From positions 390,111-454,110 of the forward strand of contig JBAZZB010000001.1 in assembly GCA_041659045.1 (NCBI GenBank): 64,000 bases of DNA, given 5' to 3'. Every line of letters starts with the position of its first letter. Within the stretch, counting starts at the first letter, position 1. A model generated the notes under the pieces. The model made no database searches, was not told where the DNA came from, and saw only the letters and a list, made by a program, of their open reading frames with translations. Position numbers and translations under genes: made by a program. The DNA is from Patescibacteria group bacterium (lineage in GTDB: Bacteria > Patescibacteriota > Patescibacteriia > SG8-24 > DYFX01). This document shows positions 39,569 to 56,502 of the stretch, piece by piece.

Positions 39569-40414
39569 CTAGGGGCAAGGCACGCCCGTGACGTTTTTCA
39601 AGAGCGAGCACTGACTGAAAATGACGAAATCGAAGGCTCCAGAAAGAGGCTGCAGACGAGGAAGACGGAGTTCCATTGCTTGTCGCGCGGCACCGAACGT
39701 ACCGGTTGTCTGCACCGACAAACGCGATGGAATCGGAACTTGGCTCCCACCTGCGTTATCGGCACTATACGCCGTGATCGCCAAGTTGGAAATGTCGCAA
39801 GTTTTCGCGCGCAAGCGTACGCGATAGGCGCGATTTCCGTTAAAATCGTTATCAATAACGCGTGGCGTGGTGTACAAAAACGTCAGTGCGGGAGAGTCTC
39901 CGTGGAACGCAATATTTGGATTGAAACCTCCAACCGCGACGGGGTCCCAGCCTGTCGCCAAAACTTCGAGACCAGACGTACCGCCACAAGAGTCGTCCCA
40001 CGAGAACGTCAGCGATTCGATACCTGGTGCAGCAGCCGGAATTTCGGGATCCCACAATACAACTTCATAGGAGCGATCTTTCGGAATCGTGGTGAAGATC
40101 GTTGTTTCCGAGGCCGTTATCGTGCGCGACCATCCAGAACCATTCGCCATCGGCACGCCAGAGACCGCCGCGGAAGACGTGTGCGCACCGTTGGCGTTCA
40201 GCGTCGCCGACGGCGTGCCGACGCGTCGAATCTGATAGAGCGTCTGTTCGGCTCCAGACTCCGCCGCGCCGAACGCAAGAATTGAATCGTCGATCACACG
40301 TGCTTGACGCAGGTTTAGAATCGAGATCGTTCCAAGCGAGGCGCCGACGATCAAGACGCCGCTCATGATGAGCAACGAGAGCAAGAGGACATTGCCGCTT
40401 CGCTTACCGCACAT
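39569..40414 (-). CDS. Pilus-associated protein with an N-terminal TM anchor (pseudopilin-like); last gene of the pilus operon.
   Basis: N-terminal hydrophobic helix; beta-rich; operon context. Confidence 0.45.
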
Positions 40415-41009
40415 AGACGCGCGAGGTTACGGTCGTTTGAGCATTCATAATGAACACGTCTTGCGGCTTTGGTCCTTGCGTACGAATCTGCATCGCGACC
40501 GTAACCGTCGGCTGCGCGTTCGCACCGTACAATCCGCTAGCGGGGTTCGTGGTGAACGGATCGTTTCCGGGCGAGACGTAAAAAACGAGTTTTTCGAGCA
40601 GAACGCCAGGCGAGGTCAGGCTTTGAGCAACGCCGTTCACGTTGACTGCCAAACAGCGATACGCGCCTGACGGACAGACCGTCGGGTTCGACTCGGAATA
40701 AAATTCAAGATCGTTTCCAGACGCGCTCTTTATCAGCAAGCGCGGCGTCGGCAGCGAAATACCGCCCTGCGAACCTTCGTAGGCTTCGTAGTCAATCTGT
40801 CCACCGCGCACTTCGCGCACGATGGCTTCCATCGCGAAGCGCAGGTCGGACTGCGCCGTCGACAACGCCAACACACGTCGCTGTGCTTGGTTGCTCAGCA
40901 GAAAGATTCCGGAAGTCACCGTGACCGTCATGCTGAAGATGCCCATGACGACCAGGATTTCCATCAAGGTGAGGCCGCGATTATCTCCAATCATAGAGTC
41001 GTTCTTCAA
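40404..41009 (-). CDS. Minor pilin / pseudopilin (prepilin-type N-terminal cleavage/methylation motif).
   Basis: GLTLMEILVVMGIF. Confidence 0.65.
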   Translation of the reverse strand: MKNDSMIGDNRGLTLMEILVVMGIFSMTVTVTSGIFLLSNQAQRRVLALSTAQSDLRFAMEAIVREVRGGQIDYEAYEGSQGGISLPTPRLLIKSASGNDLEFYSESNPTVCPSGAYRCLAVNVNGVAQSLTSPGVLLEKLVFYVSPGNDPFTTNPASGLYGANAQPTVTVAMQIRTQGPKPQDVFIMNAQTTVTSRVYVR

Positions 41010-55072: not shown

Positions 55073-56502
55073 GGGCGCGGGGGCTGCGGCGCCGTGGCGG
55101 CCGGATGAGGAATACAGAGGTACGTGATGCCGCGGCAGGTGCGTTCAGCAACCGTCGCAGGAGTCCCGCCGGCGCAATCACGTTGCATGTTCGCATCGTT
55201 ATCGATGTTGTCATAGCAACGAACTTCAACAGGCACGCCGCGGGCTTTCAGCAGCGTGTAGGCCAGGTCGCCCTCAGTATCGCACTGTACGACCGCGCCA
55301 GTCGGGTCTGCGTTCAGGAAATAGGCGCGCGTGGGGTCTGTATTCGTGTTCCCATCCAAACAATATTTTGCGCGCACCGAATCGATCGTGTTAGCACCAG
55401 CGGCACCCGTGAACGTCCATGACTCCGGATGCACCGCTACACGATTCGAAATCACCCTCTGCTCCGAAGGTACGCCTTGAATTTCACAACCGAACGGCGG
55501 GTCGGGCGCCTGTGAACTAAACGACCACAACACCGGATTCCCCGAGGCGTCGACAACCGAGTCGGCAGAAGTCGCGGATACGGTGTAGTACTCGGTGTAG
55601 GCGACGCGTGCGCGTCGAGAACTGATAGAGACCGATCTCGTGCGGTACGTATTATTCGACATCCGGAAGACGCAACGCAGCGTCGAACCGGCAGGTGCGG
55701 AAAATTGAGAGAACGCGATCGGGATATCGCTCAGATGCGTTGTCGTGCTTGAAGAGACCGACGGCGAGTACACGCCTTCGATCGGCGCGATCGTTGTCCA
55801 ACCAGAATCGACCCAGCCACTCTTCACACCCCATGGTCCATCGGCGCCCGCGCAGGAAGAATGCGGTTGACTGCAACCGAACTTCAACCAACCGTTACCC
55901 GTCGCGTCTCCGTTACCATTCCAACTGTATCCATAGAACTCACCAGCAGGCTGCGTCGCAGCCTCATCAAACGTCACACCATAGTCTGCACCCGGGCACG
56001 AATGCGGAGAAGCAGTGTTGGTTCCGACGTCCGTGCAGTTCAATGAAATCCAGCCGCGATAATTCGTGCCGTCCGTTTGACTGATGACGTACGCCCAACC
56101 GTGCAGTTGACTATCGTTTGTATCGTAGCGTGCGCACGGCACGAAGCCCGGACAGTAATGATCGGCAGCGGAGGCGGGGCTCGATGGCGTACCTGTGACC
56201 GGGACACCGACGGCACCGTTGCAGGTGGATCCAAAACAGATCCAACCAGCCAAGCTCGACCAAGCCCAACCACTGACGTTGCCAAGCGCATCAATATCAA
56301 GTCCGTAGTCGCCTGCAGGACCGACACAGCCGGTAGGATCAAAATTGCAGTTCGTAGAAATCCAACCCGTCGTTCCCGACCAGGCCCAACCATTAACGTT
56401 GTGCGGAGCAGCCTCGGCGGCACGCGGTGCCATCACAACGAAAAAGAGACCAACGCCGAAAACGAAGGTGGTGAATCTGGCGAAACGCCGGAACATCCCC
56501 AT
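55069..56502 (-). CDS. Secreted protein with four GWAWS...GWI..NC repeats and one C-terminal DNDxD Cys repeat; co-operonic with the giant adhesin (ATGA overlap).
   Basis: Signal peptide; repeats NVNGWAWSGTTGWISTNC, NVSGWAWSSLAGWICFGSTC, LHGWAYV...RGWISLNC. Confidence 0.6.
   Translation of the reverse strand: MGMFRRFARFTTFVFGVGLFFVVMAPRAAEAAPHNVNGWAWSGTTGWISTNCNFDPTGCVGPAGDYGLDIDALGNVSGWAWSSLAGWICFGSTCNGAVGVPVTGTPSSPASAADHYCPGFVPCARYDTNDSQLHGWAYVISQTDGTNYRGWISLNCTDVGTNTASPHSCPGADYGVTFDEAATQPAGEFYGYSWNGNGDATGNGWLKFGCSQPHSSCAGADGPWGVKSGWVDSGWTTIAPIEGVYSPSVSSSTTTHLSDIPIAFSQFSAPAGSTLRCVFRMSNNTYRTRSVSISSRRARVAYTEYYTVSATSADSVVDASGNPVLWSFSSQAPDPPFGCEIQGVPSEQRVISNRVAVHPESWTFTGAAGANTIDSVRAKYCLDGNTNTDPTRAYFLNADPTGAVVQCDTEGDLAYTLLKARGVPVEVRCYDNIDNDANMQRDCAGGTPATVAERTCRGITYLCIPHPAATAPQPPRP

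What the first reader, a model, noticed from the sequence alone, without database searches (positions are those of the whole stretch)
39569..56502. Complete type IV pilus operon led by two giant Cys/Asp-repeat secreted proteins
All genes from 56502 down to 39569 are co-directional with short overlaps: GWAWS-repeat protein, a 1405-aa protein with nine C-x-DG-x-DND-x-DG-xxDC-x-D-xxC repeats, pilM/N/O, pilB, receiver domain, pilC, three pilins (two close paralogs), pilD, three minor pilins and an anchor protein. Pairs of Cys bracketing Asp-rich loops look like Ca2+-binding TSP3/EF-hand-like units. Their position as first genes of the pilus operon suggests pilus-tip or pilus-associated adhesins, possibly used for host or substrate attachment. 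Tandem major-pilin paralogs may allow pilin switching.
Basis: partly seen in the sequence, partly recalled or inferred. Interest (0 to 1): 0.55.

Follow-up and report, generated by a model that had tools for sequence, protein, structure and literature searches.

The report
Split adhesin-like partner of CPR pilus genes
The two large secreted proteins in front of this Patescibacteria type IV pilus gene cluster are the two halves of one conserved but undescribed protein that sits directly upstream of pilM in about 80 related genomes sampled, here split and enlarged by a 1000-residue calcium-repeat surface module that is also found in DPANN-type archaea.

Summary
The gene chain is real. It is a Patescibacteria (CPR) type IV pilus cluster: pilM, N-like, O-like, pilB, a receiver domain, pilC, three pilins, pilD and four minor pilins. 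Two Sec-secreted proteins precede it.

Corrections:
- Only the 1405-aa protein is giant and repeat-rich.
- Its nine Cys/Asp repeats belong to a curated family (NCBIfam NF033662). Their closest solved relative is the Ca2+-binding C-rich domain of teneurin-4.
- The "anchor protein" looks like a PilX/GspK-type fourth minor pilin.
- No PilT is present in the window.
- The co-directional run continues into ligA-gatC-gatA.
- Promoter-like -10 boxes lie upstream of the GWAWS gene, pilM, pilin 1 and pilin 2. No terminator precedes pilM.

Main result:
- The giant protein's C-terminal beta-solenoid domain defines a large unannotated family of 1380 clusters.
- The domain is always at the C-terminus. Its gene ends within 400 bp upstream of pilM in 75 of 79 genome loci, and in 3 of 3 independently chosen loci.
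- In most genomes the GWAWS repeats and this domain are one 450-720-aa protein. The window carries a derived split form.
- The split form contains an inserted 1000-aa module. Collinear homologues of this module, in contigs two of which are archaeal by gene content or record name, carry a membrane anchor instead and are not linked to pilus genes.

A pilus-docked adhesin is the best reading. It is not proven.

The parts
56503..56605 (.). Divergent intergenic region between pepF (+ strand, ATG at 56606) and the GWAWS gene. It holds an extended -10-like box, TGGTAGAAT, at 56512-56520 on the minus strand.
   Evidence: Sequence read; motif statistics; pepF assigned by Peptidase_M3 and M3_N hits.
55069..56502 (-). 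477-aa secreted GWAWS-repeat protein. It has a signal peptide, about four GW(A/I)W(S)...GWI(S)xNC beta-hairpin repeats (residues 38-215), an Ig-like sandwich (about 259-357), one degenerate acid_disulf repeat (425-444) and a Pro-rich tail. It corresponds to the N-terminal half of the fused pilM-upstream protein found in other genomes.
50855..55072 (-). 1405-aa secreted protein. It overlaps the GWAWS gene by 4 bp (ATGA). It consists of a signal peptide, an N-terminal domain, nine acid_disulf repeats, beta-rich middle domains, a TSP3-like motif, a Cys-rich linker and a C-terminal beta-solenoid.
53258..54505 (-). Nine acidic double-disulfide repeats (residues about 190-605), consensus C-x-D-x-x-D-N-D-x-D-x-x-x-D-C-x-D-x-x-C. 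They are predicted Ca2+-binding units.
   Evidence: NF033662 at 174 bits with 9 stretches; teneurin-4 C-rich domain 7plp_A at E 0.0017; ligand positions compared; Ca2+ sites described in PMC9058538.
51908..54985 (-). Core module (residues about 30-1055). It is collinear at 27-32% identity with surface proteins in DPANN-type contigs that end in a transmembrane anchor and are not next to pilus genes. It is absent from the fused short form.
50858..51625 (-). C-terminal beta-solenoid domain with the invariant tail motif (Y/F)DGRAxxNPPPGxxDxxxxLP (residues 1150-1405). This is the pilM-linked module.
   Evidence: AF2 model, pLDDT 72 overall, mostly 80-98 over fragment residues about 160-330. Foldseek best match is ComZ 6qvi_A at E 1.8e-3, followed by DUF3494 ice-binding proteins. 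Family size and invariably C-terminal position. Linkage to pilM.
50802..50854 (-). 53-bp gap between the giant gene and pilM. It has an extended -10-like box, TGGTATACT, at 50828-50836 and the RBS GAGAGG. It is unstructured, so there is no terminator.
   Evidence: a -10 box is visible in the gap of most split-form loci; fold z-score +2.25.
49743..50801 (-). pilM
   Evidence: PF11104 at 2.1e-43.
48698..49750 (-). PilN-like protein. It has a Pro-rich cytoplasmic N-terminus, one transmembrane segment and no family hit. The assignment rests on position.
   Evidence: the same position is occupied in L001-L003.
48129..48695 (-). PilO-like protein
   Evidence: PF04350 at 9e-4, below the Pfam cut-off. 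The homologous position hits PilO in L087.
47870..48127 (-). Conserved 85-aa single-transmembrane protein between pilO and pilB
   Evidence: ORFs of 89-118 aa occupy the same position in L001-L003 and L087-L089.
46112..47863 (-). pilB extension ATPase
   Evidence: T2SSE at 1.2e-123 plus MshEN.
45721..46125 (-). Stand-alone response-regulator receiver domain
   Evidence: PF00072 at 1.4e-19.
44508..45716 (-). pilC platform protein
   Evidence: T2SSF at 2.2e-60, 2 stretches.
44125..44511 (-). Divergent pilin paralogue (128 aa)
   Evidence: 28% identity to pilin 1, E 1e-10; weak GspG and ComGE hits.
43582..44067 (-). Pilin 1, the probable major pilin. It has its own -10-like box, TGCTATACT, at 44108-44116. 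A hairpin follows it at 43542-43568.
   Evidence: N_methyl at 7e-9; (-26.3 kcal/mol, z -5.2).
42976..43533 (-). Pilin 2, 60% identical to pilin 1. Its likely true start is Met13 at 43497. A TGGTATAGT box lies at 43532-43540.
42195..42971 (-). pilD prepilin peptidase
   Evidence: A24_N_bact at 2.4e-28 plus Peptidase_A24.
39569..42217 (-). Four minor-pilin genes: 41576-42217 (GspH/FimU-like), 40981-41619 (PilV-like, weak), 40404-41009 (N_methyl) and 39569-40414 (PilX/GspK-like, no Glu5).
   Evidence: PilX_N at E 0.67, sub-threshold.

Best explanation
The locus is the type IV pilus (T4P) gene cluster of a Patescibacteria bacterium. Its two leading genes together encode the local version of a conserved, unannotated accessory protein.

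In most genomes this accessory is one Sec-exported protein of 450-720 aa. It has an N-terminal GWAWS beta-hairpin repeat domain, a variable middle "payload", and a C-terminal beta-solenoid with an invariant NPPPG...LP tail.

In the window's lineage a foreign secreted-protein segment was inserted between the payload and the C-terminal domain. The segment comprises a signal peptide, an N-terminal domain, Ca2+-binding double-disulfide repeats and beta-rich domains. It is related to membrane-anchored surface proteins found in DPANN-type contigs. The result is two translationally coupled genes: the GWAWS protein and a 1405-aa protein.

Proposed mechanism (inferred):
- Both products are exported by Sec and oxidised outside the cell.
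- Ca2+ rigidifies the nine repeats into an extended stalk.
- The C-terminal beta-solenoid and tail take the place of the transmembrane anchor of the archaeal-type homologues. They dock the protein onto the pilus system, most likely the minor-pilin tip complex, as PilY1 or ComZ do in other bacteria. The GWAWS protein is the second part of this docking unit.
- The module is thereby displayed as an adhesin for host or substrate contact.

Shown here: gene content, the repeat family, conserved adjacency to pilM, the fusion/split relationship, and the domain swap of anchor for beta-solenoid.

Inferred: Ca2+ binding in this protein, physical docking to the pilus, tip location and the adhesin role.
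For: - T4P genes were identified.
- The repeat matches NF033662. It also matches the Ca2+-binding teneurin-4 C-rich domain.
- The C-terminal domain family has 1380 clusters. The domain is always C-terminal, and none of the 143 proteins checked has a prepilin N-terminus.
- The C-terminal-domain gene ends within 400 bp of pilM in 75 of 79 species-representative loci (median about 20 bp). In the other four, pilM lies 1-4.9 kb downstream.
- Three of three further divergent family members, chosen independently of the DNA pattern used for the scan, are also directly upstream of pilM.
- GWAWS repeats and the C-terminal domain lie in one ORF in about 52 loci. They are split, with the 1000-aa module present, in 20 loci.
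- Split forms cluster together among fused forms in PilB and C-terminal-domain NJ trees.
- The GWAWS and giant genes overlap by ATGA here and in L001 and L003.
- Homologues of the core module in DPANN-type contigs end in a transmembrane helix plus a basic tail where the CPR proteins have the beta-solenoid.
- The best fold match of the C-terminal domain is the beta-solenoid of the tip-located competence pilin ComZ (E 1.8e-3).
- No terminator lies between the giant gene and pilM.
Against: - No direct evidence places the protein on pili.
- The ComZ match is weak (TM 0.35) and beta-solenoids are generic. DUF3494 ice-binding proteins score almost as well.
- The proteins have Sec signal peptides rather than prepilin leaders, so they cannot polymerise into the filament.
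- The recJ-rnhA-X-pilM order is conserved as a block. Part of the linkage could therefore be inherited synteny.
- A conserved -10 box precedes pilM in most of the split-form genomes, so pilM and the genes after it can be transcribed without the two large genes.
- In Saccharibacteria the candidate pilus adhesins are modular minor pilins (PMC12206443). A PilX-like minor pilin with a 220-aa extra domain exists here too.
Confidence: 0.45

Rival explanations
1. The GWAWS/beta-solenoid protein is a structural part of the pilus machine in the CPR envelope. For example, it could be a cell-wall- or S-layer-spanning collar or alignment component that fills the place of PilP/PilQ in these secretin-less bacteria. 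The inserted repeat module would then be a lineage-specific decoration rather than a pilus-borne adhesin.
For: - The gene is almost always the first gene, abutting pilM-N-O, which encode the alignment subcomplex. In fused forms the gap is 2-20 bp.
- Every locus examined carries a single match.
- The C-terminal domain and tail are strongly conserved, with 32 invariant columns.
- PilQ is absent from CPR (PMC6744442).
- Many fused forms have a basic, transmembrane-like N-terminus that could be an uncleaved anchor.
Against: - The middle region is highly variable in length and content: 0-9 acid repeats, Laminin_G_3, and total lengths of 450-1900 aa. This is typical of exposed binding proteins rather than of machine parts.
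- Monoderm T4P systems studied so far need no such component (established knowledge of Clostridium and Streptococcus T4P).
- The window's two proteins have ordinary cleavable signal peptides.
Confidence: 0.25
2. The two proteins are an independent cell-surface adhesin or S-layer-like pair. They merely neighbour the pilus genes because of inherited gene order. They are transcribed from their own promoter and act without contacting the pilus.
For: - A separate -10-like box lies upstream of the GWAWS gene, and another lies upstream of pilM.
- The whole recJ-rnhA-X-pilM neighbourhood is syntenic across genomes.
- Homologues of the core module work as membrane-anchored surface proteins without pili in DPANN-type contigs.
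Against: - Adjacency survives rearrangements. pepF was inserted between rnhA and the GWAWS gene in this window, yet the pair stayed with pilM.
- L088 lacks recJ-rnhA upstream and still has the gene next to pilM.
- In fused forms the stop codon is 2-20 bp from pilM, leaving no room for independent regulation of pilM.
- Neither protein has a recognisable cell anchor of its own: no transmembrane segment, LPXTG motif or SLH domain.
Confidence: 0.2
3. The pilus-like system works as a type II-secretion-like piston, and the large proteins are its cargo, pushed through the wall or S-layer and released.
For: - T2SS and T4P are homologous. The pilins here score best against GspG/H/I/J models.
- Cargo genes often neighbour T2SS genes (established knowledge).
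- No PilT is present in the window.
Against: - CPR lack an outer membrane and a secretin (PMC6744442), so Sec export already puts the proteins outside the cell.
- A conserved C-terminal docking-type domain with a variable payload fits retention better than release.
- PilT occurs in at least one related cluster (L088). CPR T4P systems are shown to form real pili in Saccharibacteria (PMC12206443).
Confidence: 0.1

Closest known systems
PilY1 / PilC tip-associated adhesins of type IVa pili (Pseudomonas, Neisseria, Myxococcus)
   Same: Both are large Sec-exported non-pilin proteins encoded with pilus genes. Both have a conserved C-terminal module with a variable N-terminal binding part. Both show a Ca2+-binding character. 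Both co-occur with a set of four core minor pilins (FimU/PilV/PilW/PilX-like).
   Different: There is no PilY1/PilC beta-propeller (no Pfam hit); the predicted C-terminal fold is a beta-solenoid. The gene sits upstream of pilM, not after pilX. Ca2+ sites would lie in tandem double-disulfide repeats rather than in an EF-hand-like loop of a propeller.
ComZ, the tip-located competence pilin of Thermus thermophilus (PDB 6QVI)
   Same: ComZ gives the best fold match to the C-terminal domain, through its large beta-solenoid (Foldseek E 1.8e-3, probability 1.0). Both are associated with T4P.
   Different: ComZ is a true pilin, with a prepilin leader and an N-terminal helix. The window protein and 143 checked family members have none. 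TM-score is only 0.35. There is no sequence similarity.
NCBIfam NF033662, acidic double-disulfide repeat; teneurin C-rich domain (PDB 7PLP); thrombospondin type 3 repeats
   Same: All share an Asp-rich loop motif (DxDNDxDG...D) bracketed by cysteines. There are nine copies above the family threshold. The teneurin-4 domain binds three Ca2+ ions with TSP3-like and LDL-A-like geometry (PMC9058538).
   Different: Pfam TSP_3 does not match. The teneurin domain is a single copy with six Cys, whereas here there are tandem four-Cys units. The third Ca2+ ligand (D856 in teneurin-4) is replaced in several repeats.
Type IV pilus clusters of Candidate Phyla Radiation bacteria (Meheust et al. 2019; Saccharibacteria T4P-1 and T4P-2)
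   Same: The set is the same: PilM, N, O, B, C, D plus pilins, without PilQ. The presumed role is cell-cell attachment.
   Different: The published descriptions I could read do not mention a conserved GWAWS/beta-solenoid gene upstream of pilM. In Saccharibacteria the candidate adhesins are modular minor pilins (PilX1, PilX2).
Membrane-anchored giant surface proteins in DPANN-type contigs (P0065, P0067, P0071 and relatives)
   Same: They are 27-32% identical and collinear over about 1000 residues. The shared region covers the N-terminal domain, the acid_disulf repeats and the beta-rich domains.
   Different: They end in a transmembrane helix with a basic cytoplasmic tail instead of the beta-solenoid. 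They carry extra N-terminal regions. They are not next to pilus genes.

Membership tests
Type IVa-like pilus system (CPR/monoderm type) | PilM actin-like protein, PilB extension ATPase, PilC platform protein, PilD prepilin peptidase | tested here: met
   PF11104 at 2e-43; T2SSE at 1e-123 plus MshEN; T2SSF at 2e-60 (two stretches); A24_N_bact at 2e-28 plus Peptidase_A24.
Type IVa-like pilus system (CPR/monoderm type) | Pilins with a class III leader and an N-terminal methylation motif (G/FTLxE) | tested here: met
   N_methyl hits for 43582-44067, 42976-43533, 41576-42217 and 40404-41009. The motifs KG|VTLVE and G|QSFIE are visible in the other two.
Type IVa-like pilus system (CPR/monoderm type) | PilN and PilO alignment proteins | tested here: inconclusive
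   PilO at 9e-4, below the Pfam cut-off. The PilN candidate has no hit and is assigned by position and topology only.
Type IVa-like pilus system (CPR/monoderm type) | PilT retraction ATPase | tested here: not met
   No second T2SSE-type ATPase is present in the 64-kb window (tblastn). One may lie elsewhere in the genome, and one is present in the related cluster L088.
NCBIfam NF033662, acidic double-disulfide repeat protein | Score above the curated cut-off, with tandem copies of the 32-residue repeat | tested here: met
   1405-aa protein: 174.4 bits against a cut-off of 41, 9 stretches. 477-aa protein: 19.1 bits, one stretch, so not met.
Thrombospondin type 3 repeat (Pfam PF02412) | Match to the TSP_3 model | tested here: not met
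   No Pfam family is reported at E up to 10 for either protein, apart from a chance DUF7243 hit. The resemblance is at motif level only, including DNCINYYNPNQSDTNANGVGDSC near residue 1030 (seen by eye).
Ca2+-binding C-rich domain (teneurin type) | Conserved acidic Ca2+ ligands and bracketing cysteines; Ca2+ binding itself | tested here: inconclusive
   Sequence match to 7plp_A at E 0.0017 over 25 residues. Eight of nine ligand positions are kept in the best repeat. Metal binding is not testable with these tools.
PilY1/PilC pilus-tip adhesin family | C-terminal seven-bladed beta-propeller (Pfam Neisseria_PilC/PilY1) | tested here: not met
   No Pfam hit. The AF2 model of residues 1060-1405 is a beta-solenoid.
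PilY1/PilC pilus-tip adhesin family | Physical association with the minor-pilin tip complex | not testable with these tools
   This needs multimer modelling, pull-downs or proteomics of pili.
ComZ-type modular pilin | Prepilin leader and N-terminal pilin helix carrying a beta-solenoid | tested here: not met
   A beta-solenoid-like fold is present. The N-termini are Sec signal peptides, and none of 143 family members has a G|FTLxE motif.
Proposed family: GWAWS / C-terminal beta-solenoid pilM-upstream protein of Patescibacteria | C-terminal domain with the (Y/F)DGRAxxNPPPG...LP tail at the extreme C-terminus | tested here: met
   The window's residues 1150-1405 are the first row of alignment A3. 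There are 1380 clusters at E up to 1e-3, and the domain is always C-terminal among the best 150.
Proposed family: GWAWS / C-terminal beta-solenoid pilM-upstream protein of Patescibacteria | Gene immediately upstream of pilM | tested here: met
   The gap in the window is 53 bp. 75 of 79 loci have a gap of 400 bp or less, and 3 of 3 further loci agree.
Proposed family: GWAWS / C-terminal beta-solenoid pilM-upstream protein of Patescibacteria | GWAWS repeats N-terminal in the same polypeptide | tested here: not met
   In the window and 19 other loci the GWAWS domain is a separate upstream gene, which is the split variant. It is fused in about 52 loci.

The most novel reading that the evidence does not exclude
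Patescibacteria possess a previously undescribed, nearly universal type IV pilus component. It has GWAWS repeats and a C-terminal beta-solenoid with an NPPPG tail, and its gene is always the one in front of pilM. It acts as a modular adaptor that loads interchangeable binding modules onto the pilus. In this lineage the loaded module is a 1000-residue Ca2+-stiffened surface module exchanged between CPR bacteria and DPANN archaea, the two groups of ultrasmall episymbionts.
Probability: 0.3. Interest if true: 0.75.

Novelty: new variant of a known kind. Interest (0 to 1): 0.58.

Why it matters
Type IV pili are the best-supported attachment and motility devices of the ultrasmall, host-dependent Patescibacteria. 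What gives them host specificity outside Saccharibacteria is unknown.

A conserved, unannotated protein sits at the head of the pilus cluster. It has a constant C-terminal module and a freely varying middle part. This makes it a concrete candidate for that specificity factor. It can be tested directly by proteomics of pili, multimer modelling, or genetics in tractable relatives.

The split and enlarged form in this window also shows that a large surface-display module is shared across the bacteria-archaea boundary. The two versions carry different attachment devices: a membrane anchor in one and a pilus-cluster domain in the other. This bears on how episymbionts acquire adhesion functions.

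For annotation, two domains deserve family models: the GWAWS repeats and the C-terminal beta-solenoid. The latter comprises 1380 clusters at 50% identity.

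Tried and rejected
- **Pfam at E up to 10 for both large proteins:** nothing useful.
- **PDB sequence-profile searches with the C-terminal domain and the GWAWS family:** no relatives.
- **Foldseek of the 477-aa model against PDB:** only generic Ig-like and sandwich hits, none at E of 1e-3 or better.
- **Foldseek of the C-terminal model against BFVD:** nothing significant. This argues against a phage tail-spike origin.
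- **The search for homologous proteins with the C-terminal profile:** only 13 hits, because of the word prefilter. The exhaustive representative search replaced it.
- **Generic promoter/terminator scan:** found nothing between the giant gene and pilM. It also missed the extended -10 boxes and the pilin hairpin, which I found by reading the gaps.
- **Literature searches for the repeat's name:** no papers. CPR pilus papers do not mention this gene family.
- **Rejected readings:**
  - A PilY1 homologue, because there is no propeller.
  - A modular pilin, because there is no prepilin leader.
  - "Both proteins are Cys/Asp-repeat giants".
  - "Anchor protein" for 39569-40414.

Full report
**1. What is in the sequence**

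On the minus strand, an unbroken chain of ORFs runs from 56502 to 39569.

Profile searches identify:
- PilM (PF11104, 2e-43)
- a weak PilO (9e-4)
- PilB (T2SSE 1e-123 plus MshEN)
- a stand-alone receiver domain
- PilC (T2SSF)
- PilD (A24)
- pilins and minor pilins with the N-terminal methylation motif

Further details of the pilin genes:
- The two pilins at 43582-44067 and 42976-43533 are 60% identical.
- The 128-aa ORF at 44125-44511 is a third, divergent pilin (28% identity, E 1e-10).
- The last gene (39569-40414) lacks Glu5 and has a sub-threshold PilX_N match. By position it is the fourth, PilX/GspK-like minor pilin rather than an "anchor".

No PilT is present in the window.

The co-directional run continues 1 bp later with ligA, then gatC and gatA. 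Upstream lies a divergent pepF whose ATG is at 56606.

The exact protein sequences exist in public data as hypothetical proteins WC866_02415 and WC866_02420 of a Patescibacteria group MAG, on a 646-kb contig.

**2. The two leading proteins**

Both have Sec-type signal peptides and no prepilin leader.

The 477-aa protein:
- It carries about four GW(A)W(S)...GWI(S)xNC units whose Trp and Gly residues are invariant in 39 homologues.
- An AF2 model (pLDDT 73) shows beta-hairpins followed by an Ig-like sandwich. It has no significant PDB neighbour.

The 1405-aa protein:
These belong to a curated repeat family, NCBIfam NF033662 "acidic double-disulfide repeat" (174 bits against a cut-off of 41, nine stretches).
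- The 477-aa protein has only one sub-threshold copy of this repeat.
- Pfam finds nothing, TSP_3 included.
- The closest solved relative is the C-rich domain of teneurin-4 (7PLP, E 0.0017). Its 1.5-Å structure shows three Ca2+ ions held by the same Asp/Asn positions, with TSP3-like and LDL-A-like geometry (PMC9058538).
- Eight of nine ligand positions are kept in the best window repeat.

Ca2+ binding is therefore a well-founded inference, but it is not shown.

**3. Linkage test**

Full-length homologues of the 1405-aa protein at 30-35% identity lie in the same arrangement: recJ, rnhA, a 500-600-aa protein, the giant protein, pilM and the rest of the pilus genes. These include a Candidatus Uhrbacteria MAG.

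More distant homologues cover only query residues about 30-1055, at 27-32% identity and collinearly. Their genomic contexts:
- L006 has archaeal gene content (proteasome, eRF1, aCPSF).
- L004 comes from a record named Nanoarchaeota archaeon.
- L005 has no diagnostic markers.
- None of the three has pilus genes nearby.

Six of the seven such homologues whose ends I read (P0056, P0059, P0062, P0064, P0065, P0071) finish in a transmembrane helix with a basic tail. P0067 does not show one in its last 200 residues. The CPR proteins have a 350-residue C-terminal region at this position.

**4. The pilus-linked part is the C-terminal domain**

An AF2 model of residues 1060-1405 (pLDDT 72) gives a confident beta-solenoid over fragment residues about 160-330 (mostly 80-98 per 10-residue block).
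- Its best PDB neighbour is the beta-solenoid of ComZ, the tip-located competence pilin of Thermus (E 1.8e-3, TM 0.35).
- DUF3494 ice-binding proteins follow.
- Nothing significant appears among viral models.

An alignment of this domain (A3) has an invariant tail, (Y/F)DGRAxxNPPPGxxDxxxxLP.

Scan of one genome per species: it found 102 genomes. The informative record titles are all Patescibacteria-type: Uhrbacteria, Kuenenbacteria, Falkowbacteria, Parcubacteria, Paceibacter, Minisyncoccota. Many other records are titled "uncultured Gammaproteobacteria" or simply "bacterium", and one "Vicinamibacterales". All of these share the same gene order.

Distance to pilM in the 80 loci kept plus the three fetched earlier (L001 and L058 are the same contig):
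- The ORF carrying the domain ends 400 bp or less upstream of pilM in 75 of 79 loci that have a pilM hit. The median is about 20 bp.
- In four loci, one to three extra genes intervene.
- Among the four loci with no pilM hit, the contig ends within 125 bp in two and after 1.3 kb in one. L069 has 5.9 kb downstream and carries the same kind of inserted genes as L056 and L065.

An exhaustive profile search of 1.84 billion representative proteins gave 1380 clusters (397 at E of 1e-30 or better). Among the best 150, the domain always sits at the extreme C-terminus of proteins up to about 1900 aa (the shortest look like fragments; complete ones are about 450-1900 aa).

Three divergent members picked from that list are again directly upstream of pilM. 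One carries a Laminin_G_3 payload.

**5. Fused and split forms**

In about 52 complete loci, the GWAWS repeats and the C-terminal domain lie in one ORF of 453-723 aa, with zero to five acid_disulf repeats between them. Examples are L021:8774-10765 and L080:9143-10798.

In 20 loci, including the window, there are two genes:
- a GWAWS gene of about 470-610 aa
- a giant gene of 1315-1748 aa that contains the core module

The two genes often overlap by ATGA.

Of the 143 family proteins checked, 110 have GWAWS-like motifs and none has a prepilin motif.

In neighbour-joining trees of PilB and of the C-terminal domain, the split forms cluster together among fused forms. These trees have no support values, so this is only suggestive.

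The simplest history is as follows. A single ancestral pilM-upstream protein was interrupted by a foreign secreted-protein segment lacking its membrane anchor. This left the GWAWS half as a separate ORF and fused the new module to the old C-terminal domain. The fusion in other genomes is Rosetta-stone evidence that the window's two proteins act together.

**6. Transcription signals**

The pattern TGNTAKAMT occurs five times in the whole window against 1.7 expected. All five are on the minus strand and all lie in gaps just upstream of minus-strand genes. Three are upstream of the GWAWS gene, pilM and pilin 1.

A fourth box in the cluster, TGGTATAGT, lies in front of pilin 2 and does not fit that pattern.

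A -10 box of the form GTGTATAMT, TGGTATACT or a close variant is visible in the giant-to-pilM gap of most of the 24 split-form loci listed, despite about 30% protein identity between them.

The giant-to-pilM gap is unstructured (z +2.25), so there is no terminator. A strong hairpin follows pilin 1 (-26.3 kcal/mol, z -5.2).

The cluster is therefore better described as co-directional units with internal promoters and possible read-through than as one simple operon. In fused-form genomes the stop codon lies 2-20 bp from pilM, so co-transcription is likely there.

**7. Interpretation**

Shown:
- the pilus gene set
- the repeat family
- the conserved adjacency of the C-terminal-domain gene to pilM
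- the fused/split relationship
- the replacement of a membrane anchor by the beta-solenoid

Inferred:
- The beta-solenoid and its tail dock the protein onto the pilus system.
- The docking site is most likely the minor-pilin tip complex, by analogy with PilY1 and ComZ.
- The Ca2+-stiffened module is displayed as an adhesin.

I give this reading 0.45. The rivals are:
- an envelope or machine component replacing PilP/PilQ functions (0.25)
- an independent surface adhesin kept nearby by synteny (0.2)
- a secretion cargo (0.1)

The protein is not a member of the PilY1 family, because it has no propeller. It is not a member of the ComZ family, because it has no pilin N-terminus.

**8. Novelty**

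Already known:
- CPR type IV pilus clusters (PMC6744442, PMC12206443)
- the repeat, as a curated NCBIfam model

Apparently undescribed:
- the GWAWS/beta-solenoid family as the constant leader of the cluster
- its modular payload
- the split variant with a module shared with archaeal-type surface proteins

This judgement rests on the libraries (Pfam, NCBIfam, PDB) and the papers available to me.

My verdict is a new variant of a known kind, of moderate to good interest.

Noticed in passing
window 2325-6767 (-): A second giant secreted protein (1480 aa) with Kelch repeats, DUF7507 and a C-terminal PG_binding_1 peptidoglycan-binding domain. It could be another cell-surface or host-wall-binding factor.
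   Followed up: partly
window 20000-26300: A large serine recombinase (22022-23326, +) lies next to an 895-aa PHP plus SMC/AAA-type protein (23349-26036, -) and tRNA-Asn (26154-26228, -). GC content in this stretch dips to 0.51-0.55. This may be an integrated element or defence island.
   Followed up: no
window 35702-35710, 44108-44116, 50828-50836, 56512-56520, 58895-58903 (all minus strand): The extended -10-like motif TGNTAKAMT occurs five times against 1.7 expected. Every occurrence is in a short gap just upstream of a minus-strand gene. This looks like the organism's promoter signature.
   Followed up: partly
window 56606-58438 (+): pepF (oligoendopeptidase F, M3 family) is inserted, on the opposite strand, between rnhA and the GWAWS gene. 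This interrupts the recJ-rnhA-X-pilM order conserved in most related genomes. The listed TTG start at 56345 is almost certainly too far upstream.
   Followed up: partly
L029, L056, L065, L069 (downstream of the C-terminal-domain ORF): The smallest family members (453-477 aa) have extra genes between themselves and pilM. These include a 400-900-aa secreted protein with an N-terminal AAW(T/D)(E/P)P...PPxGN motif. In L056, and probably in L029, they also include a signal-peptidase-I-like protein.
   Followed up: no
L088:3000-7898 and L088:13511-14593: A 1632-aa family member carries a Laminin_G_3 domain as payload instead of acid_disulf repeats. Its cluster also contains a PilT-like 360-aa ATPase between the receiver gene and pilC.
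   Followed up: no
record titles of L008, L009, L012, L014-L016 and many others: Many species-representative MAGs that carry this Patescibacteria-type locus are titled "uncultured Gammaproteobacteria bacterium", and one is titled "Vicinamibacterales". These look like placeholder or wrong taxonomic labels.
   Followed up: no
alignment A3, positions 28-32 of the window fragment (giant protein residues 1177-1181): An invariant N-A-T-x-C motif lies at the start of the C-terminal domain. N-A-T is an N-glycosylation-type sequon. Its significance is unknown.
   Followed up: no
L005:5871-8065: Three tandem paralogous secreted proteins of about 232 aa, and a 600-aa protein with a transmembrane helix and a Lys-rich tail, precede the homologue of the core module. 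This looks like a surface-protein island.
   Followed up: no
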